The position numbers were made by a program, and so were the translations under genes. The notes under the pieces were generated by a model that worked only from the letters and a program-made list of their open reading frames with translations, was not told the DNA's origin and searched no databases. Below are positions 13,869-29,620 of a stretch of DNA of 64,000 nucleotides, piece after piece. Source of the stretch: an uncultured Chryseobacterium sp. (GTDB lineage Bacteria; Bacteroidota; Bacteroidia; UBA10329). Each line of letters begins with the position of its first letter. The first letter of the stretch is position 1. The DNA lies in the NCBI GenBank assembly GCA_964500205.1, contig CAZCNS010000003.1, positions 62,606-126,605 on the forward strand, given 5' to 3'.

Positions 13869-14024
13869 CTTTAAATTTAATTATTACCAACGGTTTGCAT
13901 ATGGCTTGTGGCGGTTTCGAAGCACTTTCTTGTCCACCGAAACCAAACTTGGCTACGGAGCAGAAACCTGGCTGGCAGCCGTTCACCCGCCACAAGCTAT
14001 ATGTGTTGTTGGCAATAGTGTTTT

Positions 14025-14420: not shown

Positions 14421-14591
14421 TATGTGTCTTTTTACATTATTGCCAACGGTGCGCCTAAAAGTATTGCGTTTTGAAACTACTGAGTTTTCGAGATACGGTA
14501 ACGCAGCAGAACGAAACTGAGACTGACTGACGTACCGTCCCGCGCAATAATTTTAGGCATTGTTGTGTGTAGTTGTTTCATTTCAATCCGG

Positions 14592-15317: not shown

Positions 15318-15407
15318 GTTTTATAAATAAGTCATATATGAAAGGTGCCGCTTTTATCATGGTTGTTGCGTGTACTTGGTTTGATTTCAAAAATCAAAGT
15401 ACAGGAA

Positions 15408-16262
15408 TCAATGCTGCCTTTTTTCGATTTCCATTATTTGATTTTCGAAACCACGCAGGTCAGCATGTTGCCAATTCATCAATTCAATCTGTAAGGAGTC
15501 AAATTTTAGCAACGGCCGTTGTCCAAGGACTAAAAACTTATCGGGTTTTCCATTTTCGTCATGTATCTGAATTAAGCATTCTTCAATATTTTTCTTCTCA
15601 AATTTTCGCACCAAAACTGAATACTTTGTAATGCCTTCATGATTGATATAAGGTACTGTGATTTCCACTATTGACTTGAAAATTCTTCTCGTCCCTGAGA
15701 CCGAACCACGTGCGAAATGGAAGCCTTTTGGCTTCTTCCTGTTATTCTTGTCAGACTTAGGATATAATGTGTGAACAATCTTAGTGCCTTTGTATGTCAG
15801 TAGTTTATATTTCGCTGTGCTACCGTCTTTGTGTTTATAGTGGGCGACAAACAACTCAAACTCTTCAGGACGATGGTTGTTCTCAATGTCTAAATTGTCT
15901 TCAGAATAAATGGCGTCTGCTATTCTTGCGTAATCCAGTATTGGGATTGAATCGGTTCTGAACCTACTTGGCTCTTGAAGTTTCTTTCTGGTATTTCCAG
16001 ATGCTTCATTTGAATCAATCCAATTGAAAGATTCTGACCAAAATTCATGTCGGGCATGAATATGTGTGAATCCGGTATGCTCGTTACCCTTTACGAAAAC
16101 CAGTTCCTTTACTGGCGAGATATTCCAAATTGTTTTATGTCCAGGACCAAAAAGATTAATGACATTTTGATTCTTTAATACTGGATTCAGACGAGCAAAC
16201 TCCTCAATTTCCTGAATTTCTGCCTTTGTAAGAAGGATTTCAGATGCAGCGGCCATTTCCAA
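15408..16262 (-). CDS. Hypothetical soluble protein with a His-cluster (HTGFTHIHARHEF), 284 aa
   Basis: Clean AT-rich ORF directly upstream of, and co-oriented with, the 2-TM gene. No family recognised. Confidence 0.6.
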   Translation of the reverse strand: MEMAAASEILLTKAEIQEIEEFARLNPVLKNQNVINLFGPGHKTIWNISPVKELVFVKGNEHTGFTHIHARHEFWSESFNWIDSNEASGNTRKKLQEPSRFRTDSIPILDYARIADAIYSEDNLDIENNHRPEEFELFVAHYKHKDGSTAKYKLLTYKGTKIVHTLYPKSDKNNRKKPKGFHFARGSVSGTRRIFKSIVEITVPYINHEGITKYSVLVRKFEKKNIEECLIQIHDENGKPDKFLVLGQRPLLKFDSLQIELMNWQHADLRGFENQIMEIEKRQH

Positions 16263-16616
16263 TTACACACAACGATTGGCTAAAGATACCTGGTTATCCT
16301 TAGCCGACTCTGTCGATTCAGGTTAAACGTTTGTAGTTGAGTTGATTGATGCTGAATGTCCGTTTTAGCGGACTGGTGATGTCAGGCGAATTCTTTGAGC
16401 TGGCAGGTGCGTAGATGGCGGTTGTTTTTAAGCTGGTAAGGTCGAAGAACTGTGGTACGTAGTGTGTCTGTTCTCCCTTGTCCGCGAAGTGGGGGGCAAA
16501 GCAATCTCCGAACCAATAAAGGTTGCTGTTGCTCTATCATCTCCGCATCCTATGGCTTTGTTCCTTTGGTCAGAGGCAAATCTATGACATAGAACATTAG
16601 GTTGGGCGAGGGGGGG

Positions 16617-16839: not shown

Positions 16840-19800
16840 TCACTGGAATTTACCGATGACCACGGCTACGAGATTGCAGTACACGTAGTAGCCCGTGCCG
16901 GCTCCCACGTGCCAATAGCCCTGAAAGGTGACCGTGCCATCGGCAGTGGCCCTGAAGAGGCCGGTGCTGTGCCCCCCGCTCCAGTCGGTGCCATTGGAGG
17001 TAATCCAGTTTGATGGCAGCACCCAGGTTCCCGTTCCGCTGGAATTGAGTACGCGCATGTAGGTCGTGTTGACAATGGAGTTCGAGAGGTTGCACGCGCA
17101 GTCCACTTTCACCAGGTCCTCATTCTGCACTGTGATAGTGGTACTCAGGTCCGCACCCGTGAAGACCGAGGTGGTGGAAGTAGTGGAACCCACCACGCTC
17201 GACTCGTCCGCAGCGAAAGTGGCCACCCCTCTCACTTTGCCGTTCACATCAAGCTTTGCCGTGGGTGCGGTGATGCCGATGCCGACCCTGTCGTTGGTTG
17301 CATCCACTGACAAAGTGGAGCCGTCAACATTGAAGACGTCCACACCATTGCCTGTAAAGCTGAGCTTGTTGGTGGCAGAAAGCCCAGAAACGGTCGTGGC
17401 CTGAGTAAGCGCACCTCCCAGACGGACGGTGGCCGGGGCTGTTTCCGTCAGGCCGTTCTCTACCGTGATGATTCCTGTAGGGTCGCTCCATGTCGGTGCC
17501 CCCGCCCCGTTGCTGCGCAGCAACTGACCAGATGTGCCGGCTGCGGTAAAGGCGTAGGCCGACCCTGTGCCGTAAGCCAGCCCCCCGTTTGTAGGGGCTG
17601 CGTTTGAGTTTGTTCCCCCGTTGGCGATGGGCAGTATTCCTGTTACCTCTGCCGAGGCCAGACCAATGGCTCCAGCGGTGAACCCGGAGCCGTTGCCCTT
17701 GACCGGGCCGTTGAGCGTGGTGGTCACGGCAATGGTGCCACTTCCTGTCACCGGAGAGCTTCCGACCGAGAGGCCCGATGGCATTGTGAGGCCCACGGAG
17801 GTCACCGTGCCTACGTTAGCGGTGTTGATGTTCGATGCGGTCACCACTCCGGCTGGGCTTATGGTGAGTAGGCGGTCCTGACCAGAGCCGTTCAATGTGG
17901 GAAGGGTAAAGACGCCTGCTTGCGAAATGCGCATTCGTTCTATAAACGAGTTGCTTACCGACCCGGTCTGCAATATGATGTCTCCACCGCTGTTTGCAGC
18001 ACTGAGCTGATTGGTTCCGGAGCGCAGCAGCAGGTCTCCACCTGTCGCAGTGCCAGTGAGGTTGTAGCCGGCTCCGGCCTCCAACACCAGGTCGCCTCCG
18101 GAGCGCGCGCCACTGTCAGAGGAGGCATCGCCTGCCTTGACCGACAATGCGGAGCCGTCTGAGCTGCCCACGGCTTTCTGCAGGGTGATGTTCTTTGCAC
18201 CACCGCGCGAGAGCAGTACGTTGCCGCTCACATGAAGCCGTTCCAGAGGCGCAGACTCGCCAATGCCTACATTGGCCCCATTGCCCAGCACAACGCTGTT
18301 GCTTGCGCCCACCACAGCATTGGAACCTATGGCCGTTGCGTTGGTGAGGTTGTTCACTGAGGCATCGGCATTGATGCCCAGAAAAGTGTTTTGCGACCCG
18401 GTAGTGTTGAAATCGCCCGCGGCATCGCCCATGGCGATGTTGCCACTGCCTGTGGTGTTGTTGTACAGGGCCAGATAGCCCAAGGCCACATTGCTGTTGC
18501 CCGTGGTGTTGAATAGCATGGCATCCTTGCCTATGGCGGTGTTCCGGATGCCTTGTGTATTGTCGCGCAAGGCATCCTTGCCCATAGCAGTGTTGTCGAG
18601 TCCGGTGGTATTGCTATACATGGCACCAGACCCAAGCGCACTGTTGAAGTTGCCCGTGGTATTGTTGCGCAAGGCATCCCGGCCCATGGCGGTATTGTTG
18701 GATCCTGTGGTGTTGCTGACCAACGCCAGAACGCCTATGGCCGCATTGTTGAAGCCTGATGTGTTCACACGGAGTGCATCCTTTCCAATGGCGGTGTTCT
18801 GCCCGCCTGTGGTGTTGGTGCGCAGTGCGTCTCTGCCCACGGCCGTGTTGTCATTCCCGGTCGTATTGCTCACCAATGCCTGAAAGCCCAAGGCCGCGTT
18901 ACTGCTACCTGTGGTGTTGGACAGCATGGCATCCTTACCGATGGCGGTGTTCTGCCCGCCCGTGGTATTGTCGCGCAGTGCGTCCCTGCCCGCTGCCGTG
19001 TTGTCGCTTCCTGTTGTATTGCTTTGCAAGGCCCGCGATCCGAGTGCACTGTTGAATATGCCTGTGGTATTACTGCTCATGGCATTCCTACCCACGGCCG
19101 TATTGTCATTCCCGGTGGTGTTGTTGAGCAACGCCTGAAAGCCGTTGGCCACATTGCTCACACCTGTGGTGTTCGACAGGAGAGCATCCTTGCCGATGGC
19201 GGTGTTTTGAATGCCTGTGGTGTTGGCACGCAGTGCGTCCTTGCCCACGGCCGTGTTGTCGTTCCCGGTGGTATTGCTGCGCATGGCTTCCCGTCCCATG
19301 GCGGTGTTGTTGGCCCCGGTGGTGTTGGAAAGAAGGGTATTGTAGCCCACACCGGTGCTTGAGTTGGAGGTGTTCACGTTCCCCGCCTGATAGCCGAGAA
19401 AAACCTCGCCCGTGCTGGCCACCCTTCCTGCCTTCTGGTTGTTCACGCGGATGTTGAAGGGTATATTGTCTGTGGTACCTATGAAATGTGTGCCGTCCAC
19501 TGTGCTCGCATTTCCACTGAGCGACCAAGCTTCAGCAGTGACCACTGCAGTGGGGTCTGTCCATGTCATCCTTCCGTTGGCGTCAGAGACGGGGACGAAA
19601 CCAGTGGCCTGATTGCCGTCCACCATGCGGATGTTGCCTACCACATGCAGCCTGTCGCTGGGTGCCGAGATGCCGATGCCCACATTGCCGTTCTCATTAA
19701 TGGTCAATGCAGTGTTGGTGATCCCTGTCGCATAGTCATTGGACGTGCCGAGCATCAGCTTTGACCCGAAGCCATTGCTCTGTGCAGCGATCCGAGCGAT

Positions 19801-20400
19801 GGGGTTCGTTGCATCCGCGAAAATGAAGTCCATGGCTGCAAATCCTCCATTGGTGGTGGTCCCCTCCATGCTGAACATGCCTCTTGTGCTTCCTGTGAAG
19901 CTGCCGATCTGGTTTCCATTTACATGCAACCTCGACAATGGAACCGCAGCACCTATGGCCACATTCCCGGTGCGGTTGATGGCTCCGGTGGAATTGGCGG
20001 GGCCGTTCCAAGTGGGGTCAAGCTCTGTGAAGCTGGTGAGATACCCTACGGTGGCATGGTTCCCCCAACCGAATGCGGTGTTCCAGTTGGTGATGTCCGT
20101 GTTGGTTATCCCGAACGATGGGCTGGCGGAAAATATCGGGTCTGTCTCCACCGTAGAGGCAAATGAGGTCCAGCTGCTACCGTTCCATCCTTGGAACTGC
20201 CCCAAGGAGCCATTCCATCGGATGGTGCCCGCCCCGCCCGTGGGGGCACCTGCACCGATATCGGAGCTTAGGCGAAGTCGGCCAGCAATGTCGAGTTTCT
20301 CCTGCGGGGCAGGCACGCCAACACCCACGTTCTGAGCATGGGCCGCTGTTAAAGAAAGAAGCAATGTGGACAGTAGTACAGGTCTAAAGGACATCATCAT
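16840..20400 (-). CDS. Secreted giant protein (1186 aa) with a long run of YadA-like (Hep_Hag) 7-11-residue repeats and a tail-fibre-like C-terminal region
   Basis: Signal peptide MMMSFRPVLLSTLLLSLTAAHA. There are more than 40 repeats of the form NTAIGxxALxxNTTGxxNTAxG. The C-terminal has a G(I/V)LP(I/V)ANGGT motif (GILPIANGGTNS) common in phage tail-fibre and tail-fibre-like proteins. Confidence 0.85.
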   Translation of the reverse strand: MMMSFRPVLLSTLLLSLTAAHAQNVGVGVPAPQEKLDIAGRLRLSSDIGAGAPTGGAGTIRWNGSLGQFQGWNGSSWTSFASTVETDPIFSASPSFGITNTDITNWNTAFGWGNHATVGYLTSFTELDPTWNGPANSTGAINRTGNVAIGAAVPLSRLHVNGNQIGSFTGSTRGMFSMEGTTTNGGFAAMDFIFADATNPIARIAAQSNGFGSKLMLGTSNDYATGITNTALTINENGNVGIGISAPSDRLHVVGNIRMVDGNQATGFVPVSDANGRMTWTDPTAVVTAEAWSLSGNASTVDGTHFIGTTDNIPFNIRVNNQKAGRVASTGEVFLGYQAGNVNTSNSSTGVGYNTLLSNTTGANNTAMGREAMRSNTTGNDNTAVGKDALRANTTGIQNTAIGKDALLSNTTGVSNVANGFQALLNNTTGNDNTAVGRNAMSSNTTGIFNSALGSRALQSNTTGSDNTAAGRDALRDNTTGGQNTAIGKDAMLSNTTGSSNAALGFQALVSNTTGNDNTAVGRDALRTNTTGGQNTAIGKDALRVNTSGFNNAAIGVLALVSNTTGSNNTAMGRDALRNNTTGNFNSALGSGAMYSNTTGLDNTAMGKDALRDNTQGIRNTAIGKDAMLFNTTGNSNVALGYLALYNNTTGSGNIAMGDAAGDFNTTGSQNTFLGINADASVNNLTNATAIGSNAVVGASNSVVLGNGANVGIGESAPLERLHVSGNVLLSRGGAKNITLQKAVGSSDGSALSVKAGDASSDSGARSGGDLVLEAGAGYNLTGTATGGDLLLRSGTNQLSAANSGGDIILQTGSVSNSFIERMRISQAGVFTLPTLNGSGQDRLLTISPAGVVTASNINTANVGTVTSVGLTMPSGLSVGSSPVTGSGTIAVTTTLNGPVKGNGSGFTAGAIGLASAEVTGILPIANGGTNSNAAPTNGGLAYGTGSAYAFTAAGTSGQLLRSNGAGAPTWSDPTGIITVENGLTETAPATVRLGGALTQATTVSGLSATNKLSFTGNGVDVFNVDGSTLSVDATNDRVGIGITAPTAKLDVNGKVRGVATFAADESSVVGSTTSTTSVFTGADLSTTITVQNEDLVKVDCACNLSNSIVNTTYMRVLNSSGTGTWVLPSNWITSNGTDWSGGHSTGLFRATADGTVTFQGYWHVGAGTGYYVYCNLVAVVIGKFQ

Positions 20401-21665: not shown

Positions 21666-23174
21666 ATGAACTTCGACCAGACCTTCAAGAACATTGATGA
21701 CGTGCTCCGCAGGGAGACCGACTCCGAACTCGACTACATAGAGCAGACCTCGTGGATACTCTTCCTTCGCTACTTGGACGAACTGGAGCAGGAGCGCGCA
21801 GATGAGGCCGAGCTGCGGGGCAACGAATACCGTTTCCTCCTGGCCGAGGAATACCGCTGGGGCGCATGGGCCATGCCCAAGGATGCCAAAGGGGCGTACG
21901 ATTTCAAGTCCGCCCTGACGGGGCCCGACCTCATCGAGTTTGTCAATGGCAAGCTGCTGCCCTACCTGCGCACCTTCAAAGAGGCGCACAGCGACAACCC
22001 CCGCACCCTCGAATACAAGGTGGGCGAGATATTCGGAGAGCTGAAGAACAAGCTGGGCAGCGGCTACAACCTGCGCGAGATACTGGAGGCCATAGACACC
22101 CTGCCCCTCAAGAGCAGCAAGGACCGCCACGAGCTCAGCTTCCTCTACGAGAGCCGCATCCGCAACATGGGCAACGCGGGCCGCAACGGAGGCCAGTACT
22201 ACACCCCCCGCCCCCTCGTGCGCGCCATGATTCAGGTGACCGACCCCCGCATAGGCGAGACCGTCTATGATGGGGCCGCAGGCTCTGCGGGCTTCCTCTG
22301 CGAGGCATACGAGTACATGGCCCCGCAGACCGAGCGCCACCCCACGCTATCAAGCACCGAGGCCCTGCGCGTGCTGCAAGAGGAGACCCTCTATGGCAAG
22401 GAGGTGAAGAACCTCGCCTACATCATCGGCATCATGAACATGATACTGCATGGCGTGGAGGCCCCCAACCTCATCCATATCAACACGCTGGCCGCACACG
22501 ACAGTCAGGTGCAGGAGCGCGACCGCTATGATGTCATCCTCGCCAATCCGCCCTTTGGCAGCAAGGAGCGGCCCGAGGTGCAGCAGGCATTCGCCATCAA
22601 GACCAGCGAGACGGCCTTCCTCTTCCTTGAGCACTTCATCCGCTATCTGAAGACGGGAGGCCGCGCGGCCATCGTCATCAAGAACACCTTTCTGAGTAAC
22701 ACCGACAATGCGGCCGTGAGCCTGCGCAAGCACCTGCTGGAGACCTGCAACCTCCACACCGTGCTCGACATGCCGCAGGGCACCTTCCTCGGGGCGGGCG
22801 TCAAGACCGTCATCCTCTTCTTCACCAAGGGCGAGCCTACCCGCAACATCTGGTACTACCAGCTGAACCCCGGCCGCAACATGGGCAAGACCAACCCCCT
22901 CAACGACAGCGACCTGGCCGAGTTCATCGAACTCCAGAAGACCCGCCCAGAGACCGAGTGCAGTTGGAAAGTTGGGGTCACTTCGAGTGACGCTGACGAA
23001 GGAGGCGTTGTATCGAGAAGCCCCAACGCCACCAACGGCTTCGACCTCTCCGTAAAGAACCCCAACACCCCCGAAGAGGCACCCCTGCGCAGCCCACAGG
23101 AGATACTGGACGAGATGACCGCCTTGGACGAAGAGACCAAGGAACTGTTGGACGGGATAAGGGAGTTGCTATGA
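21666..23174 (+). CDS. hsdM: Type I restriction-modification N6-adenine DNA methyltransferase subunit
   Basis: HsdM N-terminal domain and catalytic motif IV NPPF (…VILANPPFGSKERPE…). It overlaps the specificity subunit by ATGA. Confidence 0.95.
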   Translation: MNFDQTFKNIDDVLRRETDSELDYIEQTSWILFLRYLDELEQERADEAELRGNEYRFLLAEEYRWGAWAMPKDAKGAYDFKSALTGPDLIEFVNGKLLPYLRTFKEAHSDNPRTLEYKVGEIFGELKNKLGSGYNLREILEAIDTLPLKSSKDRHELSFLYESRIRNMGNAGRNGGQYYTPRPLVRAMIQVTDPRIGETVYDGAAGSAGFLCEAYEYMAPQTERHPTLSSTEALRVLQEETLYGKEVKNLAYIIGIMNMILHGVEAPNLIHINTLAAHDSQVQERDRYDVILANPPFGSKERPEVQQAFAIKTSETAFLFLEHFIRYLKTGGRAAIVIKNTFLSNTDNAAVSLRKHLLETCNLHTVLDMPQGTFLGAGVKTVILFFTKGEPTRNIWYYQLNPGRNMGKTNPLNDSDLAEFIELQKTRPETECSWKVGVTSSDADEGGVVSRSPNATNGFDLSVKNPNTPEEAPLRSPQEILDEMTALDEETKELLDGIRELL

Positions 23175-24322
23175 GTACTAACAAATGGACTCCATTCCGA
23201 AATGTCGGAAATGTTCAGTCGGGAGCTGGATTTCCAATTGTTTATCAAGGCCTAACGGAAGGTGAATACCCCTTCTACAAGGTTGGAGACATGAATTCAG
23301 AAGGCAACGAGATATTCATGTCTCAAGCCAACCATTACATATCTGATGAAGTTCGCAGGGAACTTGGAGCTAAAGTAATTCCACCAGACAGTATAATCTT
23401 CCCCAAAGTTGGCGGGGCCATATTGACTAACAAAAAAAGGATTACAACTCTTCCATGCTGTATTGACAACAACTTGATGTCAATCTGGGTCGACCCAGCA
23501 GCATATTCCAAAAAGTACTTCTACTATTTCTTCAATTCGATTGATTTATTTGAGTTGTCTAATAAAGCTGGGTTGCCATCAATTACGCAAACAGCTCTTT
23601 ACGAACTGAAAGTTCCCATCCCACCCCTCCCCGAACAGGAGCGCATCGTTGCCAAGTTGGATGCCGCCTTTGCGGCCATCGATAAGGCCAAGGCCAATGT
23701 GGAGCGCAACCTGCACAATGCCAAGGAGCTTTTTCAGAGCAAGCTCAATGAGGTGTTTGAAAATTTGGAATCACAATATGAAAGGACTCCTATAGCTTCT
23801 GTTTGCAAAGAGATATTTGCTGGAGGTGATGCCCCACGTGAAAACTTCTCCGAAGCCAGAACAGATAAATTTCACATTCCAATAATTGCCAATGCCGTTA
23901 AAGACCATGGTCTTTACGGATATACAGATTTGGTGAGAGTTTCGGAGCCATCAATTACCATAGCAGCACGCGGAAGTGGTACTGGACATACTGAAATCAG
24001 GTTGGAGCCATTTTTCCCAATTGTCAGGTTAATTGTCCTGATTCCAAAGAGGGAGATGATTGACCTTTCCTTTTTCTGTTACTCAATCAAAAATTTGGAG
24101 ATTTTGAGAAGCGGTTCTGCAATACCGCAGTTGACTGTGCCCATGATTAAAGGTTACTCGCTTGCTGTGCCACCTTTGGAAACTCAAGAAGTGTTAGTTG
24201 AAATGCTTAACTCGTTGGAGGGCAGTTTGCAGTCCCTTGAAACCTATTATACCCGCAAACTAACAGAATTGGAAACCTTGAAGAAGTCGGTTTTGGAGCG
24301 GGCTTTTAGGGGGGAGATTTGA
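23171..24322 (+). CDS. hsdS: Type I R-M specificity subunit (two target-recognition domains)
   Basis: AT-rich variable TRDs separated by the conserved central helix (…LPPLPEQERIVAKLDAAFAAIDKAKANVERNLHNAKELFQSKLNEVF…), and the conserved distal helix …LETQEVLVEMLNSLEGSLQSLETYYTRKLTELETLKKSVLERAFRGEI*. Confidence 0.9.
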   Translation: MSTNKWTPFRNVGNVQSGAGFPIVYQGLTEGEYPFYKVGDMNSEGNEIFMSQANHYISDEVRRELGAKVIPPDSIIFPKVGGAILTNKKRITTLPCCIDNNLMSIWVDPAAYSKKYFYYFFNSIDLFELSNKAGLPSITQTALYELKVPIPPLPEQERIVAKLDAAFAAIDKAKANVERNLHNAKELFQSKLNEVFENLESQYERTPIASVCKEIFAGGDAPRENFSEARTDKFHIPIIANAVKDHGLYGYTDLVRVSEPSITIAARGSGTGHTEIRLEPFFPIVRLIVLIPKREMIDLSFFCYSIKNLEILRSGSAIPQLTVPMIKGYSLAVPPLETQEVLVEMLNSLEGSLQSLETYYTRKLTELETLKKSVLERAFRGEI

Positions 24323-24359
24323 AAAGAGAAAATGACATAGTGTTCATTTGCAGCCTCTT

Positions 24360-24463
24360 TGTGGGACACGTAGGACATAGCGTGGGACGTGGCGGAGTGG
24401 GAGCCTCCATCGTGCAGTTCCACGGAGCGTCCCAAGCGTCCCACAGCAAATAGCCCACAGCCT
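24360..24463. mobile_element. MITE/PATE-like about 100-bp element, copy A (terminal inverted repeats TGTGGGAC…GTCCCACA)
   Basis: GTGGGACACGTAGGACATAGCGTGGGACGTGGCGGAGTGG … CACGGAGCGTCCCAAGCGTCCCACAGC. Arms are mutually complementary (CGTGGGACG vs CGTCCCACG). Near-identical copies lie at 24543-24640 and 26324-26433. Confidence 0.5.
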
Positions 24464-24524
24464 CAAACTAACAGAATTGGAAACCTTGAAGTAGTCGGTT
24501 TTGGAGCGGGCTTTTAGGGGGGAG
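24464..24524 (+). pseudogene. Orphan duplicate of the hsdS 3' end (…KLTELETLK*SVLERAFRGEL), copy 2 of 3
   Basis: A roughly 60-bp direct repeat of 24262-24322 with an internal stop (TAG). A third copy at 24653-24716 runs into the KAP NTPase reading frame. Confidence 0.6.
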
Positions 24525-24542
24525 CTATGAAAATAAAAATGG

Positions 24543-24640
24543 AGGACACGTAGGGCATAGCGTGGGAAGTGGCGGAGTGGTGGTCACCATCGTGCAGTCC
24601 CACGGAACGTCCCAAGCGTCCCACAGCATGAAGCCCACAG
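24543..24640. mobile_element. MITE/PATE-like element, copy B
   Basis: GGACACGTAGGGCATAGCGTGGGAAGTGGCGGAGTGG…CACGGAACGTCCCAAGCGTCCCACAGC. Confidence 0.5.
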
Positions 24641-24736
24641 CAAACCCACTACACCCGCAAACTAACAGAACTTGAAACCTTGAAGAAGTCGGTTTTGGAG
24701 CGGGCTTGTAGGGGGGGATATGAAACAGGAAGCGAT

Positions 24737-26116
24737 ATGAAAGGAAGACACAATGACTTGATAATCGACCTCAATGAACCTTTCAAAGAGTGCAAACTCA
24801 ATCGAAAGCGGAATGCGGAGATTCTAACCGAGGTGGTGCAGAGGTACAAGGATGGTTTTGTCCTTGCGATAAACAACCCTTGGGGTGCGGGTAAGACCAC
24901 CTTCGTGAAGATGTGGCAGCAGCACTTGGAGAATGAACATTTCCGTACCGTCTATTTTAACGCTTGGGAGAACGACCTTGGCAATGCCATTTTCCCTGCC
25001 CTGCTCTCTGAATTGGAAGGAATTGACCGCGCACATAGAGATGGCGAGAATCAACAGAATCCAAGGTTTGCTGACGTATTAGACAAGGCCGCCCCGATTG
25101 CAAAATCTTTAATGCCCGCAGTGGCAAAGATTCTGTTTGACAGATTTGCAGGCAAGGGTGCTGCATCGGAACTAGCAGAGGCAATTGCAGCGGGTGGTGC
25201 AGAGGTACTGGCAGAAGGCATCAAAGACTACAGGGCACAAAAGCAAGGACTTGGTGAGTTCAAAAAATCGCTAACCGAGTTTGTGGAGACCTACACTTCT
25301 TATGGCAGGCCCATCATCTTCATTATAGACGAGCTTGACCGCTGCCGTCCCGACTATGCGGTCTCCGTGCTAGAACACATCAAGCACCTTTTCTCTATAC
25401 GCAGAGTAGTTTTCGTGCTTTCCATAGACAAGGTGCAATTGGGTCACGCCATTTGTGGGGTGTATGGCAGTGACAACTTCGATTCCAATGAGTACTTGAG
25501 AAGGTTTATTGATTTGGAGTACAATCTGCCCGTTCCGAACTACACTGAAATCACGAAATACTTTTTCAACTACTTCGGATTTGAAGATGTTGCATTGCTA
25601 AAAAACAAACCAAATGCATGGTTTTCTGATGAGGAACTGTTTGACTTTATGGGGCAACGCTTCAGACATCTGAATTGGAATATTCGAAGAATAGAGAAAC
25701 TGATGGCACGCTGCAGAGTTACCATGAGTCTTGTTGCACCAGATGAATTTCATCTCATGCCGTTCTACTTGTACCTATCTTTCCTTTACGAATTAGATGG
25801 TGAATTCGCTGGCAAGCTGACATCCGGTAAACTCACTATTACAGAAGTCAACTCCAAATTGAAGAGTCCTGAACTGCTGTTTGGGGCGAGTTTTGAAGCA
25901 CCATTTTGGCAGAAGTGCTTCGCATTTATTTTATTATCTATATCCGATAATTTTACTGACATCTCGAAACTAAATCCAATAAATGCTATCAAACAACAAC
26001 CGCTATCTGCGTTTTCTTCAGTTGTACATGCGGGATCATATGGTCAGCTATCGCTTCCCGGAATAGTTGAAATAGGCAGGAGGTTAAGACATTCCTATAG
26101 TTTTGAAGCAGCTTAA
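24737..26116 (+). CDS. KAP-family P-loop NTPase inserted between hsdS and hsdR (ORF in track begins at TTG 24680 inside the hsdS-end repeat; ATG at 24737 preferred)
   Basis: Walker A NNPWGAGKTTFVKMW, the KAP-typical YFNAWEND motif, and Walker B IIFIIDELDRCRPDY. AT-rich relative to hsdM and hsdR. Confidence 0.85.
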   Translation: MKGRHNDLIIDLNEPFKECKLNRKRNAEILTEVVQRYKDGFVLAINNPWGAGKTTFVKMWQQHLENEHFRTVYFNAWENDLGNAIFPALLSELEGIDRAHRDGENQQNPRFADVLDKAAPIAKSLMPAVAKILFDRFAGKGAASELAEAIAAGGAEVLAEGIKDYRAQKQGLGEFKKSLTEFVETYTSYGRPIIFIIDELDRCRPDYAVSVLEHIKHLFSIRRVVFVLSIDKVQLGHAICGVYGSDNFDSNEYLRRFIDLEYNLPVPNYTEITKYFFNYFGFEDVALLKNKPNAWFSDEELFDFMGQRFRHLNWNIRRIEKLMARCRVTMSLVAPDEFHLMPFYLYLSFLYELDGEFAGKLTSGKLTITEVNSKLKSPELLFGASFEAPFWQKCFAFILLSISDNFTDISKLNPINAIKQQPLSAFSSVVHAGSYGQLSLPGIVEIGRRLRHSYSFEAA

Positions 26117-26118
26117 TC

Positions 26119-26178
26119 AATGAACGAATCCGAAACCCGCGCCCATTTCATCGCCCCCGCCCTGATAGCCAAGGGATA
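26119..26178 (+). pseudogene. Truncated, diverged copy of the hsdR 5' end (MNESETRAHFIAPALIAKG*)
   Basis: 20 codons, about 80% identical to the true hsdR start at 27077 (VNESNTRAHYIDPALIAKGW…), with TAG where hsdR has TGG. Confidence 0.5.
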
Positions 26179-26323
26179 GGGGCTAATAACAGCCATTGAA
26201 CCGAGCGGTTGAAAACCCCTTTCAGGAGGGCAGCATGTTCAGGTTCCGCTGTTCCACGGCACGGCCCATAAACCCCACAGAAAACCCCACCCGTAGAAAC
26301 CATGGCGCACTCACCGTCTTTTT

Positions 26324-26433
26324 TGTGGGACACGTAGGACATGACGTGGGACGTGGCGGAGTGGCAAGCACCTTCGGCCGTCCTGCGGAGCGTCCCATGC
26401 AGTCCCACAAGTCCCACAGCACAAAGCCCACAG
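26324..26433. mobile_element. MITE/PATE-like element, copy C
   Basis: TGTGGGACACGTAGGACATGACGTGGGACGTGGCGGAGTGG…GGAGCGTCCCATGCAGTCCCACAAGTCCCACAGC. Confidence 0.5.
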
Positions 26434-26462
26434 AACATCCAACCAACCTAACATATTGACAA

Positions 26463-27047
26463 TTGCACTACATTAGCCCCATGGCAACGGAGAATCCAGG
26501 CGGTTTTATCCCAAAGAATGGGGGTTATAGAAACCTCTATGCCTTCCAGAAGGCCGAGATCATTTATGATGGCACGGTCTATTTCACCAAACGGTTCTTC
26601 GGGAAATACGACCGCACTGTAGATCAGATGGTGCAGGCTGCCCGCAGCGGCAAGCAGAACATAGGCGAGGGCAGCGTGGTATCGGCCACCTCCAAACAGT
26701 TGGAGATCAACCTGACCAACGTGGCCCGCGCCAGCTTGGAAGAACTCAAGATGGACTACGAGGATTTCCTGCGCACCAACAAGCTGCCCATCTGGGACAA
26801 GAACCACCGCCTTGCCCTGCGGGTGCGCGAATTGAACCGTACGCCCAATGCCGATTACAGTACTTTTCAGAAGGCCATAGAGCACGAGAGCCCTGAGATC
26901 TGTGCCAACACGCTGCTCACCCTCATCAACATCGCCATTTACCTGCTCAAGAACCAGTTGGCCACCCTCGAAAAGGAGTTCCTTGAAGAAGGGGGTATCC
27001 GCGAACGAATGACCCGCGCCCGCATTGCCAAACGCAAGGGCGGGTAG
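26463..27047 (+). CDS. Four-helix-bundle protein (23S rRNA intervening-sequence protein / Avd-like family) with a C-terminal extension; alternative start MATENPGG at 26481
   Basis: YRNLYAFQKAEIIYDGTVYFTKRF…DRTVDQMVQAARSGKQNIGEGS…KQLEINLTNVARASLEEL matches the family hallmark (…W/FQKA…L…IY…T…FP…E…L…Q…RAA.SI..NIAEG…F…A.GSL.EL). It sits between a MITE-like copy and hsdR. Confidence 0.65.
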   Translation: MHYISPMATENPGGFIPKNGGYRNLYAFQKAEIIYDGTVYFTKRFFGKYDRTVDQMVQAARSGKQNIGEGSVVSATSKQLEINLTNVARASLEELKMDYEDFLRTNKLPIWDKNHRLALRVRELNRTPNADYSTFQKAIEHESPEICANTLLTLINIAIYLLKNQLATLEKEFLEEGGIRERMTRARIAKRKGG

Positions 27048-27076
27048 CTGCCAGCAAATGAAACCGCCCCGTTGAC

Positions 27077-29620
27077 GTGAACGAATCCAACACCCGCGCG
27101 CATTACATAGACCCTGCCCTTATAGCCAAGGGATGGGGTTTCAATGCGCCCATGAACGAAGGACGCATACGCACGGAGCATTTCATCACCAATGGCCGCA
27201 TATTGGGCCAGAGCGTAGGCAGCAAGCGATCGAAGGATGGGCTGATACACGGTGAGCGGCTCAAGGCCGACTATGTACTGCAATACCGCAACCGCAACAT
27301 TGGTATTATAGAGGCCAAGGCTGATACGCAGGACTTCACCGAAGGCGTGGGGCAGGCCAAGGAGTACGCCACCCGCCTACAGGTGCGCTTTGCCTTTAGC
27401 ACCAATGGCAAACGCATCTATTGCATCGACATGCAGGAGGGCACCGAGAGCGAGGTGCGCGAATACCCCACACCCGATGAGCTGTGGGCCATGACGTTTG
27501 ACGCAGATTCGGAGTGTCACACTAAGCGGAGTCGAAGTGCAAACGAGGAATCTGGGGCTTCCAACGGACTCCATCCCGAATCTTCGGGACTCAGAATGAC
27601 ACCCCCCGACCACGGCATCAACTGGATGGAACGGTTCAGCGCAGTGCCCTTCGAGGACCGTGGCGGCACATGGCAGCCGCGCTACTATCAGGAGAACGCC
27701 ATCACCAACGCCCTCGATGCCATGGCCGAGGGCCGTGACCGCATCCTGCTCACCCTCGCCACCGGCACAGGCAAGACGGCCATCGCCTTTCAGATATGCT
27801 GGAAGCTGTATCAAAGCCGTTGGAACCTGAGGCGCGATGGCAGCGGCCTGCCGCGCATCCTTTTCCTGGCCGACCGCAACGTGCTGGCCGATCAGGCATT
27901 CAATGCGTTTAACCTCTCTTTTGAGGAGAACGCACTGGTGCGCATCACCCCCGAGGAGATACGCAAGGCAGGCAAGGTGCCGACCAGCGGAAGCCTGTTC
28001 TTCACCATCTTCCAGACCTTCATGACAGGCGGCAATACCGATGCAGGCGAGACCGAGGACATGGAAGCGGGCAAGGCCCATTTCTGGGGCTACCCGAAGG
28101 ACTTCTTCGACCTTATCATCATTGACGAGTGCCACCGTGCAGGGGCGAAGGACAACAGCTCATGGCGGGCCATCATGGAGTATTTCAAGCCTGCGGTGCA
28201 GATAGGTCTCACCGCCACGCCCAAGCGCGATGTGAATGGCGACACCTACCGCTATTTCGGTGACCCCGTGTATGTCTATTCGCTCAAAGAAGGCATCAAC
28301 GATGGTTTCCTCACGCCTTTCCGCTACAAGGAGATGAGCACCACGGGGGATGAGTACACCTACACCGAGGGCGACATCGTGATGGAAGGAGAGGTGGAAT
28401 ATGGCCGCACTTACACGCAGGAGGAACAGAACCGTGTAATCATCCTGGAGGATGTAGAGCGTTTTCGTGTGCAGAAGCTGCTCGAAAGCATAGACCAGCG
28501 GCACAAGACCATCGTGTTTTGCAATGACCAGCTGCACGCCCTCGCGGTGCGCAACCTCATCAATCAGCTCTCAACCAGTCGCAACCCGCACTACTGCCAC
28601 CGTGTCACGGCAGACGATGGCAAGCAGGGCGAACAGTACCTCAAGCACTTTCAGGACAACCAGAGCAGCATCCCCACAATCCTTACCACCTCGCAGAAAC
28701 TGAGCACGGGTGTGGACGCACCAGAGGTGCGCAACATCGTGCTGATGCGCGTGGTGCGCAGCATGGTGGAGTTCAAGCAGATCATAGGGCGCGGCACACG
28801 CCTTCATGATGGCAAGAGCTACTTCACGGTCTATGATTTCTATTGGCGGTTACACACCCACTTCGAGGATCCCGAATGGGACGGCCCGCCCGAAGAGCCT
28901 GAACCCCCAGTGGAACGGCCGTTGACCGACCCTTGTCTGAACTGTGGTCAGAGGCGCTGCATCTGCAACCAGCCTCCGCCAGAGCTGTGCGAACTCTGCG
29001 CCAAACATCCCTGCGAGTGCGAAGGCGAACCACGCCCCAAGAAGATACGCATCAAGATGGCCGATGGCAGCGTGCGTGATCTGCAGGGCATGACCCGCAC
29101 CAGATACTACGGCAAGAATGGACAGCTTGTGACGGGCGATGCCTTCATTCAGGAACTCTTTGGCGACCTGCCTTCCTTCTTCTCCGATGAGGAGAAACTA
29201 AGGGAGATATGGAGCACGCCCGACACCCGCAGGAAACTGCTGGAAGAGATGAAGGAGAAGGGCTACAGCGAGGAACAGCTCAAGGAATTGCAAGAGCTGG
29301 TGCATGGCCGCGACAGCGACCTGTATGATGTGCTCTCCTACGTGGCCTATCACCGCGACCTTGTGCCGCGCTCCGACCGCGCAGACCGCGCCAAGGTGCA
29401 TTTCGCCACCTACGACCCCAAGCAGCAGGAGTTCCTCAACTTCGTGCTGGAGCAGTACGTGCGTTCAGGCGTCCACGAACTGGACGACCAGAAACTGCCC
29501 CAGCTCCTCGACCTCAAATACAAGAGCGTGGCCGATGCCAAGGCGCAGCTTGGCTCTCCTAACACCATTCGAGACACCTTCATCGGCTTTCAGAAATGGC
29601 TGTATGGGGAGGTGGGGTAG
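27077..29620 (+). CDS. hsdR: Type I restriction enzyme R subunit (GTG start), with a Cys-rich C-terminal insert
   Basis: N-terminal NESNTRAHYIDPAL. SF2 helicase motifs LTLATGTGKT, IIIDECHRAG, GLTATP, QIIGRGTRL. C-terminal DUF3387-like region. CxxC x4 cluster CLNCGQRRCICNQ…CELCAKHPCEC. Confidence 0.95.
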   Translation: MNESNTRAHYIDPALIAKGWGFNAPMNEGRIRTEHFITNGRILGQSVGSKRSKDGLIHGERLKADYVLQYRNRNIGIIEAKADTQDFTEGVGQAKEYATRLQVRFAFSTNGKRIYCIDMQEGTESEVREYPTPDELWAMTFDADSECHTKRSRSANEESGASNGLHPESSGLRMTPPDHGINWMERFSAVPFEDRGGTWQPRYYQENAITNALDAMAEGRDRILLTLATGTGKTAIAFQICWKLYQSRWNLRRDGSGLPRILFLADRNVLADQAFNAFNLSFEENALVRITPEEIRKAGKVPTSGSLFFTIFQTFMTGGNTDAGETEDMEAGKAHFWGYPKDFFDLIIIDECHRAGAKDNSSWRAIMEYFKPAVQIGLTATPKRDVNGDTYRYFGDPVYVYSLKEGINDGFLTPFRYKEMSTTGDEYTYTEGDIVMEGEVEYGRTYTQEEQNRVIILEDVERFRVQKLLESIDQRHKTIVFCNDQLHALAVRNLINQLSTSRNPHYCHRVTADDGKQGEQYLKHFQDNQSSIPTILTTSQKLSTGVDAPEVRNIVLMRVVRSMVEFKQIIGRGTRLHDGKSYFTVYDFYWRLHTHFEDPEWDGPPEEPEPPVERPLTDPCLNCGQRRCICNQPPPELCELCAKHPCECEGEPRPKKIRIKMADGSVRDLQGMTRTRYYGKNGQLVTGDAFIQELFGDLPSFFSDEEKLREIWSTPDTRRKLLEEMKEKGYSEEQLKELQELVHGRDSDLYDVLSYVAYHRDLVPRSDRADRAKVHFATYDPKQQEFLNFVLEQYVRSGVHELDDQKLPQLLDLKYKSVADAKAQLGSPNTIRDTFIGFQKWLYGEVG

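What the first reader, a model, noticed from the sequence alone, without database searches (positions are those of the whole stretch)
24249..24736. Three tandem copies of the hsdS 3' end and a diverged duplicate of the hsdR 5' end
The last roughly 60 bp of hsdS (…TRKLTELETLKKSVLERAFRGEI*) recur at 24464-24524 (with an internal TAG) and 24653-24716. The third copy runs in-frame into the KAP ORF, which is why the track's longest KAP ORF starts at a TTG inside the repeat. Each copy is followed by a MITE-like element, giving a roughly 200-bp tandem unit. Separately, 26119-26178 encodes MNESETRAHFIAPALIAKG*, a truncated and roughly 20% diverged copy of the real hsdR start (27077). Such long 'target duplications' are not produced by ordinary transposition. 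They suggest homologous-recombination-driven cassette exchange, or serial site-specific insertion next to a conserved hsd sequence, possibly enabling hsdS and cargo shuffling.
Basis: seen in the sequence. Interest (0 to 1): 0.6.

Follow-up and report, generated by a model that had tools for sequence, protein, structure and literature searches.

The report
Recombination scars between stacked restriction-operon cassettes
Short leftover copies of the end of hsdS and the start of hsdR mark the borders of extra genes stacked inside a type I restriction operon, and similar leftovers in about ten related operons suggest how such operons gain and swap embedded defence genes.

Summary
An EcoAI-type type I restriction operon carries three direct copies of the last 64-85 nt of hsdS and one orphan copy of the first 60 nt of hsdR. 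They border a KAP NTPase gene (PADLOC candidate PDC-S20) and a four-helix-bundle (4HB) suffix gene.

It is not an assembly artefact. The copies differ by 5-18% and by indels. Independent assemblies of related loci show the same design.

Orphan hsdS-3' or hsdR-5' pieces recur in 8 of 62 loci of this family analysed, and in two further loci. Internal control segments almost never recur. Their inner ends vary, two hsdR-5'|hsdS-3' joints sit on microhomologies, and several orphans carry another allele's synonymous changes.

My best explanation is that these are scars of "insertion with long target duplication". Hsd loci with different cargo recombined using conserved gene ends as a homologous anchor, with an illegitimate joint on the other side. 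A local tandem duplication was added.

The "MITE-like" element is not a MITE. It is a hairpin repeat seen only next to 4HB-suffix genes in hsd operons.

Site-specific insertion is not supported.

This is a new variant of a known kind, of moderate interest.

The parts
21666..23174 (+). hsdM (N6-adenine methyltransferase subunit)
   Evidence: Pfam N6_Mtase 7.5e-54 and HsdM_N. It is 78-79% identical in DNA to hsdM of L017 and L099.
23171..24322 (+). hsdS (specificity subunit). Its last roughly 85 nt (24240-24322) are repeat copy 1.
   Evidence: Pfam Methylase_S 3.8e-28. The C-terminus is ...LETYYTRKLTELETLKKSVLERAFRGEI*.
24358..24463 (+). Hairpin element E1: GTGGGAC / GTAGGAC direct motifs followed by inverted GTCCCA(C) motifs.
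   Evidence: the repeat finder family D1. RNA fold -44.2 kcal/mol, z = -2.4.
24464..24539 (+). Orphan hsdS 3' end, copy 2. Homology runs from 66 nt before the stop to 17 nt after it. In-frame TAG at 24492-24494.
   Evidence: 95.7% over 70 nt to copy 1. Three non-synonymous and no synonymous codon differences. Its junction to E2 (…GGGGGGAGCTATGAAAATAAAAATGGAGGAC) resembles, by eye, the junction of hsdS-3' copy 3 to the first E unit in L099.
24541..24641 (+). Hairpin element E2
   Evidence: 89% identical to E1 over 98 nt. RNA fold -36.9 kcal/mol.
24642..24720 (+). Orphan hsdS 3' end, copy 3. Homology starts about 84 nt before the stop. The stop was lost by a 1-nt deletion, so the copy runs in frame into KAP.
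   Evidence: It encodes QTHYTRKLTELE..., and its CAAACCCACTACACCC is 16/16 identical to the hsdS allele of L103.
24737..26116 (+). Embedded KAP-family P-loop NTPase gene (459 aa)
   Evidence: Pfam KAP_NTPase 2.9e-36. PADLOC PDC-S20 7.4e-128, PifA 1e-22, QatA 2e-15. An identical 459-aa protein is in the database as P0121.
26120..26179 (+). Orphan hsdR 5' end (MNESETRAHFIAPALIAKG*). It starts 3 nt after the KAP stop codon.
   Evidence: 86% over 57 nt to 27078-27134. Translation. No detectable hsdR homology beyond codon 20.
26180..26247 (.). 68 nt of unexplained origin between the orphan hsdR start and the half E unit
   Evidence: No significant similarity to HsdR N-termini. No Rfam family; the only hit is a chance-level CRISPR-DR35 match, E=0.87.
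26248..26291 (+). Half E unit (right arm only)
   Evidence: Families D3 and D7: 73% to the right arm of E1. Homology of the window to L099 starts here.
26322..26434 (+). Hairpin element E3, in the leader of the 4HB gene
   Evidence: RNA fold -52.2 kcal/mol, z = -4.0. Its 18-nt AGTCCCACAAGTCCCACA is identical to the E-like element of L106.
26481..27047 (+). Embedded four-helix-bundle suffix protein gene (188 aa)
   Evidence: NCBIfam TIGR04258 3.1e-22 and TIGR02436. Homologues at 92% and 75% identity are also embedded between hsdS and hsdR.
27077..29620 (+). hsdR (EcoAI/FtnUII-family restriction subunit), GTG start
   Evidence: NCBIfam restrict_EcoAI 3e-222. An identical protein with a later called start is P0001.

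Best explanation
**What the repeats are.** They are relics (scars) at the borders of cargo stacked between hsdS and hsdR of a type IB restriction-modification operon.

**The core block.** The block [hsdS-3' copy 3 - KAP - hsdR-5' copy] keeps native operon junctions. It is what remains of an hsdS-KAP-hsdR arrangement.

**What separates the orphans from the working genes.** DNA carrying the hairpin element E now lies between each orphan gene end and the working gene. On the left this DNA is E1 - copy 2 - E2. On the right it is a half E unit - E3 - the 4HB gene.

**Likely mechanism.** Such 'insertions with long target duplication' most likely arise when two hsd loci with different cargo recombine.
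- One side of the incoming DNA pairs homologously with a conserved hsd sequence (the hsdR body, the hsdM/hsdS body, or an existing hsdS-3' copy).
- The other side is joined illegitimately, often at a few bases of microhomology.
- The stretch between the joint and the start of homology ends up twice.

**Copy 2.** Copy 2 plus E2 is best explained by an additional local tandem duplication of the [hsdS 3' end + E] unit.

**Consequences.** The orphan pieces are probably not functional. As 45-150-bp direct repeats they can support later deletion, duplication and cassette exchange.

**Shown versus inferred.**
- Shown: the anatomy, the recurrence, variable end points, microhomology joints in two relatives, and the foreign-allele signature of several orphans.
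- Inferred: the order of events, the recombination pathway (homology-facilitated illegitimate recombination or a related route), and the lack of function.
For: 1. **The copies are real and diverged.** They differ by 5-18% and by indels.
2. **Native junctions.** The KAP stop is followed after 3 nt by the ATG of the orphan hsdR start. Copy 3 ends about 16 nt before the KAP ATG. Cassettes in other loci are packed equally tightly.
3. **Foreign-allele signatures.**
   - Copy 3 carries QTHY, as do the hsdS alleles of L103 and L104, against the resident ETYY.
   - The orphan hsdR start is 84% identical to P0004, P0006 and P0007 against 77% to the resident.
   - In L054 the orphan reads MNESET against the resident MNEAET.
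   - In L055 and L062 the differences are mostly synonymous (6:1 and 6:3). Summed codon-position differences are 26, 22 and 49.
4. **Recurrence.**
   - Each locus's own hsdS-3' or hsdR-5' 115-mer recurs in 8 of 62 loci (9 of 124 gene-end segments).
   - Only 1 of about 604 internal control segments gave a hit of comparable length (Fisher p = 8e-7).
   - The hsdM 3' end recurs in 0 of 53 loci.
   - L099/L100/L101 also has three hsdS-3' copies, each heading a cassette, and L103 has an orphan hsdR start.
5. **End points and joints.** Inner end points vary. The hsdR-5'|hsdS-3' joints in L049 and L054 lie on CCGCCCTC and GAAAC microhomologies.
6. **Link to stacking.** Scars go with two or more cassettes (6/8 against 9/32, p = 0.036).
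7. **No mobility genes.** No integrase or transposase was recognised in or near the inserts.
8. **Precedent.** The phenomenon class is documented for RM-linked DNA (PMC2853133). One-sided homologous plus illegitimate recombination is documented experimentally in transformable bacteria (summarised in PMC6382021).
Against: - No isogenic 'empty' allele (hsdS-KAP-hsdR, or hsdS-E-4HB-hsdR without KAP) was recovered, so the order and direction of events are not shown.
- The window's own joints (E tail to hsdS-3' copies; orphan hsdR start to the half E unit) show at most 1-3 nt of microhomology. A 68-nt piece (26180-26247) is unexplained.
- Copy 2 has only non-synonymous changes, which fits in-situ duplication rather than import.
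- Excess of third-position differences can also arise after an old in-situ duplication, if the functional copy stays under purifying selection.
- All three E-bearing stretches lie exactly between an orphan and its functional gene end. An active role of E is therefore not excluded.
- Nothing is known about natural competence or recombination in the source organism.
Confidence: 0.6

Rival explanations
1. Purely local origin. Replication slippage or unequal crossing-over duplicated the [hsdS 3' end + E] interval and the hsdR start in situ. The orphans then decayed, and no DNA came from other hsd loci.
For: - Copy 2 differs from copy 1 only by non-synonymous changes, including a stop.
- Units 1 and 2 form a roughly 200-bp tandem.
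- E units form a perfect 129-nt tandem array in L099.
- Within the window the three core copies are closer to each other (92-96%) than to other species' hsdS ends (85-91%).
Against: - Copy 3 extends further left than copy 2 and carries another allele's sequence (QTHY, 16/16 nt as in L103).
- Orphans in L054, L055, L062 and L078 differ from the resident mostly at synonymous sites.
- In L099 the cassettes behind identical hsdS-3' copies are only 32% identical in protein.
- KAP lies between an orphan hsdS end and an orphan hsdR start. A simple duplication of one interval does not produce that.
Confidence: 0.15
2. Integron-like site-specific system. The E hairpins (or a core inside the hsdS 3' end) are recombination sites for a recombinase encoded elsewhere, and cassettes are inserted and excised there.
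For: - E is a roughly 100-nt imperfect palindrome of repeated 7-mers, conserved across lineages.
- All three E-bearing stretches in the window flank inserted blocks.
- Cassettes are single, same-strand, tightly packed genes.
Against: - No integrase or transposase family was found among the ORFs scanned between 8.2 and 37.1 kb, and there is no Y1 transposase in the window.
- Repeat end points vary between loci.
- Most loci with scars have no E. E occurs only with the 4HB gene, including L106, which has no extra cassette.
- Two joints lie on microhomologies.
- Three nearby ORFs have no family match (16840-20400, 15408-16262, 14592-15317), so the absence of a recombinase is not absolute.
Confidence: 0.08
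3. Functional leaders. The hsdS-3' copies are retained because they carry signals (ribosome binding, translational coupling, RNA processing) needed by the cassette that follows.
For: - In L099, L017, L055 and L062, and in the window for copy 3, an hsdS-3' copy lies directly upstream of a cassette start.
- The purine-rich end GGGCTTTTAGGGGGGAG is the best-kept part.
- Copies 1 and 2 in L099 are 100% identical over 44 nt although the genes behind them are only 32% identical.
Against: - Copy 2 in the window and copy 3 in L099 precede a non-coding hairpin, not a gene.
- The G-run lies 19-22 nt from the next ATG, too far for a Shine-Dalgarno site, and KAP has its own AGGAAG 8 nt upstream.
- The same 44 nt are conserved among hsdS alleles of different species (L017, L099, L101), so identity needs no special selection.
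- The idea does not account for orphan hsdR starts.
Confidence: 0.1
4. Assembly artefact (collapsed or misjoined repeats).
For: None found. The source assembly and its reads could not be inspected.
Against: - The copies differ by substitutions and indels, and each has unique flanks.
- Three independent metagenome assemblies (L099, L100, L101) and an NCBI genome (L017) show the same architecture.
- A separate assembly (L102) reproduces the E3 - 4HB - hsdR segment at 87% identity.
Confidence: 0.02

Closest known systems
Insertion with long target duplication of RM-linked DNA (Nobusato et al. 2000, from my own knowledge; Furuta et al. 2010, PMC2853133)
   Same: - The inserted DNA is flanked by direct repeats longer than 30 bp and of variable length.
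- The repeats are copies of the target sequence.
- The insert carries no transposase or integrase.
- The phenomenon is linked to restriction-modification loci.
   Different: - There, a whole RM system is the insert and an ordinary gene or spacer is the target. Here the RM operon is the target.
- Here the duplicated targets are always the hsdS 3' end or the hsdR 5' end.
- Here the inserts are embedded cargo genes or a hairpin element.
- Here several insertions are nested, and chimeric hsdR-5'|hsdS-3' joints occur.
Defence genes embedded in type I RM operons (prrC and rlo genes, from my own knowledge; TgvAB, PMC11411939; 'guilt by embedding', bioRxiv 10.1101/2024.01.29.577857)
   Same: - Accessory genes on the same strand lie between hsdS and hsdR.
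- The KAP gene matches PADLOC candidate PDC-S20, and a relative's cassette matches PDC-S42.
- The cargo families are the usual ones: Fic, RhuM, Schlafen-like, HNH, GmrSD.
   Different: Those studies catalogue the cargo. The texts I searched do not mention recombination or flanking gene-end remnants ('recombination' occurs 0 times in the preprint). This finding concerns the borders and how the cargo got there.
Homology-facilitated illegitimate recombination in transformable bacteria (de Vries & Wackernagel 2002; Prudhomme et al. 2002; summarised in PMC6382021)
   Same: A one-sided homologous anchor plus a joint at 3-10 bp of microhomology. This predicts orphan pieces with variable inner ends, and chimeric joints such as CCGCCCTC in L049.
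   Different: It was shown experimentally for selected markers. Here it is only inferred from scars. Competence of the host is unknown, and the window's own joints show little microhomology.
Element-borne replacement of a gene's 3' end at att sites (e14 or phage 21 in icd; islands in tRNA genes). From my own knowledge.
   Same: A duplicated gene 3' end with synonymous differences, one copy attached to the working gene and one orphan.
   Different: Those cases need an integrase and a fixed crossover core. Here there is no integrase, the end points vary, and the start of the downstream gene (hsdR) is duplicated as well.
Phase-variable hsdS shufflons or invertons (PMC7672463)
   Same: Partial hsdS sequences are repeated inside a type I locus.
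   Different: Those have inverted repeats, silent copies that carry target-recognition domains, and a recombinase. Here the repeats are direct, cover only the last 45-85 nt, hold no recognition domain, and no recombinase was found.

Membership tests
Type I RM operon with embedded cargo | hsdM, hsdS and hsdR are present, complete and on one strand | tested here: met
   Pfam and NCBIfam hits: N6_Mtase 7.5e-54, Methylase_S 3.8e-28, restrict_EcoAI 3e-222.
Type I RM operon with embedded cargo | Non-hsd genes lie between hsd genes in the same orientation and match known embedded or defence-candidate families | tested here: met
   KAP NTPase matches PDC-S20 at 7.4e-128. The 4HB-suffix gene is embedded in the same position in L099 and L106 but has no PADLOC match.
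Insertion with long target duplication (Furuta et al. 2010 criteria) | Direct repeats longer than 30 bp flank the insert | tested here: met
   Repeats of 64-70 nt (hsdS 3') and 57 nt (hsdR 5').
Insertion with long target duplication (Furuta et al. 2010 criteria) | The repeat is single-copy at the uninterrupted site in a compared genome | tested here: inconclusive
   Relatives with hsdS directly next to hsdR, or with a single cassette, hold single copies. No isogenic empty allele of this locus was found, and the window genome itself could not be fetched.
Insertion with long target duplication (Furuta et al. 2010 criteria) | No mobility gene in the insert | tested here: met
   The inserts hold only E elements, KAP and 4HB. 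tblastn with a Y1 transposase found nothing in the window.
Insertion with long target duplication (Furuta et al. 2010 criteria) | The inserted unit contains R and M genes | tested here: not met
   The RM operon is the target, not the insert.
MITE | Many dispersed copies with terminal inverted repeats and short target duplications | tested here: not met
   There are 3.5 copies, all inside the hsd locus. The 20-nt core gave only 16 chance hits in 185,579 genomes, none extending beyond the core. The motif occurs only in loci that carry a 4HB-suffix gene.
REP/REPIN with RAYT (Y1 transposase) | A Y1 transposase whose flanking hairpins match the repeat; genome-wide dispersal | tested here: not met
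   No Y1 transposase in the window. Y1 genes in L017 and L103 are flanked by different hairpins (CCCCGTTGGGGC). No dispersal.
Integron cassette array | An IntI-type tyrosine recombinase next to the array | tested here: not met
   No recombinase family among the ORFs scanned between 8.2 and 37.1 kb. Three ORFs have no family match, so absence is not absolute.
Integron cassette array | attC sites with conserved R''/R' cores and a fixed crossover point | tested here: inconclusive
   E is an imperfect palindrome, but its conserved motifs are GTGGGAC and GTCCCAC. No Rfam family matches. Cassette borders vary. No dedicated attC model was run.
Phase-variable hsdS shufflon / inverton | Inverted repeats bounding alternative hsdS segments that carry recognition domains, plus a recombinase | tested here: not met
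   All copies are direct, 64-85 nt, and cover only the C-terminal conserved helix. No relevant inverted repeats.
Homology-facilitated illegitimate recombination product | Illegitimate joint at 3-10 bp of microhomology next to a homologous anchor | tested here: inconclusive
   Met in relatives: L049 (CCGCCCTC) and L054 (GAAAC). In the window the joints show at most 1-3 nt.
Homology-facilitated illegitimate recombination product | RecA dependence and DNA uptake by the host | not testable with these tools
   Needs genetics in the source organism.

The most novel reading that the evidence does not exclude
Two linked ideas are not excluded.

1. The conserved ends of hsdS and hsdR act as portable homology arms, or 'landing pads'. 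This would make the hsdS-hsdR gap of type IB restriction operons an integrase-free, integron-like cassette array. Each acquisition leaves a new copy of the arm, which then serves for the next gain, loss or exchange of a defence gene.
2. The conserved GTGGGAC/GTCCCAC hairpin repeat that accompanies the four-helix-bundle suffix gene may take an active part. It could be an RNA or DNA partner of that protein, or a break-prone palindrome that seeds these rearrangements.
Probability: 0.15. Interest if true: 0.75.

Novelty: new variant of a known kind. Interest (0 to 1): 0.5.

Why it matters
It is established that defence genes sit embedded inside type I restriction operons, and this is used to discover new defence systems. 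How they get there has not been addressed in the work I could read.

Orphan hsdS-3' and hsdR-5' pieces at cassette borders are a readable record of those events. They recur in roughly a fifth of cargo-bearing loci of this family. They indicate that whole [gene end - cargo - gene end] blocks move between hsd loci by ordinary recombination, without a dedicated recombinase. Cargo can therefore be stacked rather than only replaced. The resulting direct repeats predict ongoing structural variation.

The scars could be used to date and orient acquisitions. They could also delimit cassettes, and so help pick out cargo as opposed to core subunits.

Separately, the four-helix-bundle suffix protein belongs to a very large, very conserved family of unknown function. 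In the two lineages I could examine, its gene sits between hsdS and hsdR with a hairpin element beside it. This gives a concrete handle for studying it.

Tried and rejected
- **Scan for the E core across species genomes.** Pattern CGTGGGANGTGGCGGAGTGG against one genome for each of 185,579 species gave 16 hits in unrelated phyla. None extends beyond the 20-mer. E is therefore not a widespread element.
- **Rfam.** Nothing at gathering threshold on the whole window. With permissive E-values on 24200-26500, only a chance-level CRISPR-DR35 hit appeared.
- **Consensus RNA fold of seven E copies.** The covariation term was only -0.59 kcal/mol, and the register differed from the single-sequence folds. 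There is no convincing evidence for a selected RNA structure, so I did not build a covariance model.
- **Promoter and terminator scan of 23900-27300.** Counts were not above shuffled expectation, and E is not followed by a T-run.
- **Fetching the window's own genome or near-identical contigs.** Exact look-up of KAP, hsdS and hsdR found nothing on record.
- **Looking for a donor-like hsdS-KAP-hsdR locus.**
  - The closest KAP homologue (62% identity) lies on a 3.5-kb contig whose gene layout fits, but no DNA or Pfam data were available.
  - The next one checked lies in a conjugative-transposon context.
- **Extending the orphan hsdR start beyond codon 20.** Three-frame comparison with 120 HsdR N-termini showed no support, so 26180-26247 stays unexplained.
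- **Viral contig scans for 4HB-suffix relatives.** These gave none, then one distant locus (46% identity) without the E motif.
- **hsdM 3' end duplicates.** None in 53 loci. The phenomenon is specific to the hsdS-hsdR junction.
- **Rejected readings.** MITE, REP/RAYT, integron, inverton and assembly artefact. Reasons are in the membership tests and the rival explanations.
Full report
**1. What is in the window**

The region 21.6-29.6 kb is a type I restriction-modification operon of the EcoAI/FtnUII (type IB) family:
- hsdM at 21666-23174;
- hsdS at 23171-24322;
- hsdR at 27077-29620 (Pfam and NCBIfam).

Two further genes lie between hsdS and hsdR on the same strand.
- A KAP-family P-loop NTPase at 24737-26116. 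It matches PADLOC phage-defence candidate PDC-S20 at 7e-128.
- A four-helix-bundle (4HB) 'suffix' protein at 26481-27047. It matches TIGR04258 and TIGR02436.

The neighbouring genes are ordinary housekeeping genes. No integrase or transposase family was found among the ORFs scanned between 8.2 and 37.1 kb.

**2.

- The last roughly 85 nt of hsdS recur as direct copies at 24464-24533 (95.7% over 70 nt) and 24653-24716 (95.3% over 64 nt). Homology of the latter reaches left to about 24642.
- Copy 2 has an in-frame TAG.
- Copy 3 lost the stop codon by a 1-nt deletion and reads in frame into KAP. That is why the longest ORF starts at a TTG at 24680.
- The true KAP start is the ATG at 24737, as in the identical database protein P0121.
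- An orphan hsdR start (MNESETRAHFIAPALIAKG*, 26120-26179) begins 3 nt after the KAP stop. It is 86% identical over 57 nt to the real start.
- No homology to hsdR is detectable beyond codon 20.
- None of these pieces occurs elsewhere in the 64 kb.
- Copies 1 and 2 are each followed by a roughly 100-nt imperfect hairpin, here called E (E1 at 24358-24463, E2 at 24541-24641).
- A half unit at 26248-26291 and a full unit E3 at 26322-26434 precede the 4HB gene.

**3. Not an artefact**

The copies differ by substitutions and indels, and each has unique flanks. Independent assemblies of related loci have the same architecture (see section 5). A separate assembly (L102) reproduces E3 - 4HB - hsdR at 87% identity.

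**4. E is not a MITE**

- E has no copy outside the hsd locus in the window.
- Its 20-nt core has no true match in one genome for each of 185,579 species.
- It matches no Rfam family.
- In the related locus L099 (also seen as L100 and L101; its 4HB protein is 92% identical), three E units form a perfect 129-nt tandem array directly upstream of the 4HB gene. A gene caller had read this array as a 150-aa ORF.
- In a more distant lineage (L106-L110; 4HB 75% identical) the operon is hsdM - hsdS - 4HB - E-like hairpin - hsdR. The 18-nt AGTCCCACAAGTCCCACA is identical to that in window E3.
- The pattern GTCCCA-N2-6-GTCCCA occurs only in the loci fetched that carry a 4HB-suffix gene. It is absent from the other 101 of the 110 loci.
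- E folds well in all lineages (z from -2 to -6.7).
- A consensus fold of seven copies shows little covariation. Whether E works as RNA or as DNA is therefore open.

So E is a conserved companion of the 4HB-suffix gene inside hsd operons.

**5. The orphan gene ends are recurrent in this RM family**

*Close relatives*
- L017 is the closest relative (hsdR 71% identical; an NCBI genome). Its layout is hsdS - 125-aa gene - hsdS-3' copy (88% over 58 nt) - Y1-transposase element - hsdR.
- L099 has three hsdS-3' copies, each heading a cassette: a 125-aa gene, a paralogous 132-aa gene, and the E array plus 4HB.
- In L099, copies 1 and 2 are 100% identical over 44 nt, although the two genes are only 32% identical in protein.
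- The same 44 nt are also conserved among hsdS alleles of other species. This identity therefore needs no special explanation.
- L103 has an orphan hsdR start (84% over 56 nt) after a PDC-S42 cassette.

*Metagenome survey*
- A metagenome scan with an HsdR alignment gave 80 further loci.
- I searched each locus with its own last 115 nt of hsdS and its own first 115 nt of hsdR.
- Among 62 analysable loci, extra copies of 29-94 nt occur in 8 (9 of 124 gene-end segments).
- Ten internal control segments per locus gave only 17-23-nt chance hits. The exception is one locus (L093) with an unrelated repeat. Fisher p = 8e-7.
- The hsdM 3' end is never duplicated (0 of 53).
- Forty loci have at least 300 bp between hsdS and hsdR.
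- The cargo is almost always on the hsd strand. It belongs to families typical of embedded defence genes: Fic, RhuM, Schlafen-like, HNH, DUF3800, reverse transcriptase, Zeta toxin and GmrSD.
- Scars go with two or more cassettes (6/8 against 9/32, p = 0.036).

**6. Anatomy of the scars**

- The outer end of each orphan coincides with the natural gene end (the stop of hsdS, or the start of hsdR).
- The inner end varies: from -43 to beyond -99 in hsdS, and from +17 to +92 in hsdR.
- In L049 an orphan hsdR start (codons 1-14) is fused directly to an orphan hsdS end at a shared CCGCCCTC.
- In L054 the same kind of chimera is joined at GAAAC.
- In L067 and L078 an orphan hsdR start lies directly after hsdS, ahead of the cargo.
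- In L055 and L062 cassettes are flanked by repeats of 94-nt (L055, extending to about 150 nt by eye) and about 135 nt (L062). Both include the hsdS end.
- Several orphans carry another allele's sequence:
  - window copy 3 has QTHY, with CAAACCCACTACACCC 16/16 as in L103, where the resident gene has ETYY;
  - the window's orphan hsdR start fits the family consensus better than the resident start;
  - L054 has MNESET against the resident MNEAET;
  - differences in L055 and L062 are mostly synonymous (6:1 and 6:3);
  - summed differences by codon position are 26, 22 and 49.
- By contrast, window copy 2 has three non-synonymous and no synonymous differences, as expected for a decaying local duplicate.

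**7. Most likely mechanism**

The block [copy 3 - KAP - orphan hsdR start] keeps native operon spacing on both sides. It looks like the remains of an hsdS-KAP-hsdR operon. E-bearing DNA lies between each orphan and the corresponding working gene.

The structure belongs to the class described as 'insertion with long target duplication' for RM-linked DNA. That class has direct repeats longer than 30 bp and of variable length, no mobility genes, and occurs mostly in naturally competent species (Furuta et al. 2010, PMC2853133).

The simplest route consistent with the variable inner ends, the microhomology joints and the foreign-allele signatures is recombination between hsd loci with different cargo. 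One end is anchored by homology in a conserved hsd sequence. The other end is joined illegitimately. This is homology-facilitated illegitimate recombination, summarised in PMC6382021.

Whatever lies between the joint and the start of homology is then present twice. One copy stays attached to the working gene and the other is orphaned.

Two variants cannot be told apart from structure alone:
- the orphan is the relic of a displaced resident gene;
- the orphan hitch-hiked with the imported cassette.

Copy 2 plus E2 is best explained by an added tandem duplication.

The steps shown are the anatomy, the recurrence, the varying end points, the microhomology joints in relatives and the allele signatures. 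The pathway, the order of events and the lack of function of the orphans are inferred.

**8. Rivals**

- A purely local duplication explains copy 2. It does not explain copy 3, the orphan hsdR start, or the relatives with synonymous-only divergence.
- An integron-like site-specific system is unsupported. No recombinase was found, the borders vary, and E is tied to the 4HB gene rather than to scars.
- A role of the hsdS-3' copies as functional leaders is possible. However, two copies precede non-coding DNA, and the idea does not explain the orphan hsdR starts.
- An assembly artefact is very unlikely.

**9. Relation to what is known**

- That defence genes are embedded in type I operons is established: prrC and rlo genes (my own knowledge), TgvAB (PMC11411939), and the 'guilt by embedding' survey (bioRxiv 10.1101/2024.01.29.577857).
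- The texts I could search do not discuss how cargo is inserted, or mention gene-end remnants.
- The scars fit a known rearrangement class, but with the roles reversed. The RM operon is the target, its own gene ends are what is duplicated, and the insertions are nested.

I therefore rate this as a new variant of a known kind, with moderate interest.

**10. Limits**

- The window's genome and close strains could not be retrieved, so no empty site is available.
- The window's own joints show little microhomology.
- The stretch 26180-26247 is unexplained.
- The survey covers one RM family and about 70 loci.
- The function of E and of the 4HB-suffix protein is unknown.

Noticed in passing
window 24358-24463, 24541-24641, 26248-26291, 26322-26434; L099 7597-7983; L102 13-124; L106 4583-4640: A hairpin element built from GTGGGAC/GTAGGAC direct motifs and inverted GTCCCA(C) motifs accompanies the four-helix-bundle suffix gene in hsd operons. 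It lies upstream as 1-3 tandem 129-nt units, or downstream as one 60-nt unit. An 18-nt core is identical between lineages whose 4HB proteins are only 75% identical. The motif is absent from the 101 fetched loci that lack a 4HB-suffix gene. In L106 the minus strand folds much better (-42 against -27 kcal/mol).
   Followed up: partly
window 26481-27047; L099 8001-8564; L106 4001-4579: The four-helix-bundle suffix protein (TIGR04258) belongs to a very large and very conserved family: the best 120 of 7,999 database hits are 70-98% identical. In both lineages examined its gene sits between hsdS and hsdR of an EcoAI-type operon. It has no PADLOC or PHROG match, and I found no paper on it. It may be a regular accessory of these operons.
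   Followed up: partly
L103 8001-11048 (protein P0006); also P0036: Some HsdR homologues (1015 and 912 aa) carry a GIY-YIG domain. In L103 (P0006) it lies in frame inside the ResIII helicase domain, resembling a domain or homing-endonuclease insertion.
   Followed up: no
L017 4449-5105; L103 7367-7990: A 150-aa Y1 (IS200-like) transposase gene lies directly upstream of hsdR in two relatives. It is flanked by inverted repeats and CCCCGTTGGGGC hairpins, and the junction to hsdR is the same in both. It looks like a RAYT-like or IS200-like element resident in the same hotspot.
   Followed up: partly
L093 3284-4476 and 1-460: A short repeat of about 110 nt is present in more than ten copies around an hsd locus, and one copy lies inside hsdR. 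This is a true MITE-like element. It was the only long hit among the internal control segments.
   Followed up: no
L099 6702-7079 and 7149-7547; L017 3966-4343: A family of 125-132-aa proteins (MEKKL...HFR...) with no Pfam, PADLOC or PHROG match occupies the first cassette position after hsdS. Members are only about 32% identical to each other, while their upstream leader (hsdS end plus AAAGAAGATTAGC) is conserved. The 35-nt spacer after hsdS in the window (24323-24357) may be a remnant of that leader.
   Followed up: partly
window 14000-16300 and 16840-20400: A low-GC stretch (38% against about 56%) holds two ORFs (241 and 284 aa) with no family match. Next to it lies a 1186-aa ORF, also with no Pfam or NCBIfam match, just upstream of the hsd operon.
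   Followed up: no
L100 3074-10267: This is the same locus as L099 from another sample, but hsdM, hsdS and hsdR are split into several ORFs. Either the operon is decaying or the assembly has frameshift errors.
   Followed up: no
window 27077: The working hsdR appears to start at a GTG (VNESNTRAHY...). The database protein for the same gene (P0001, 822 aa) was called 25 codons further downstream. The family alignment supports the upstream start.
   Followed up: partly
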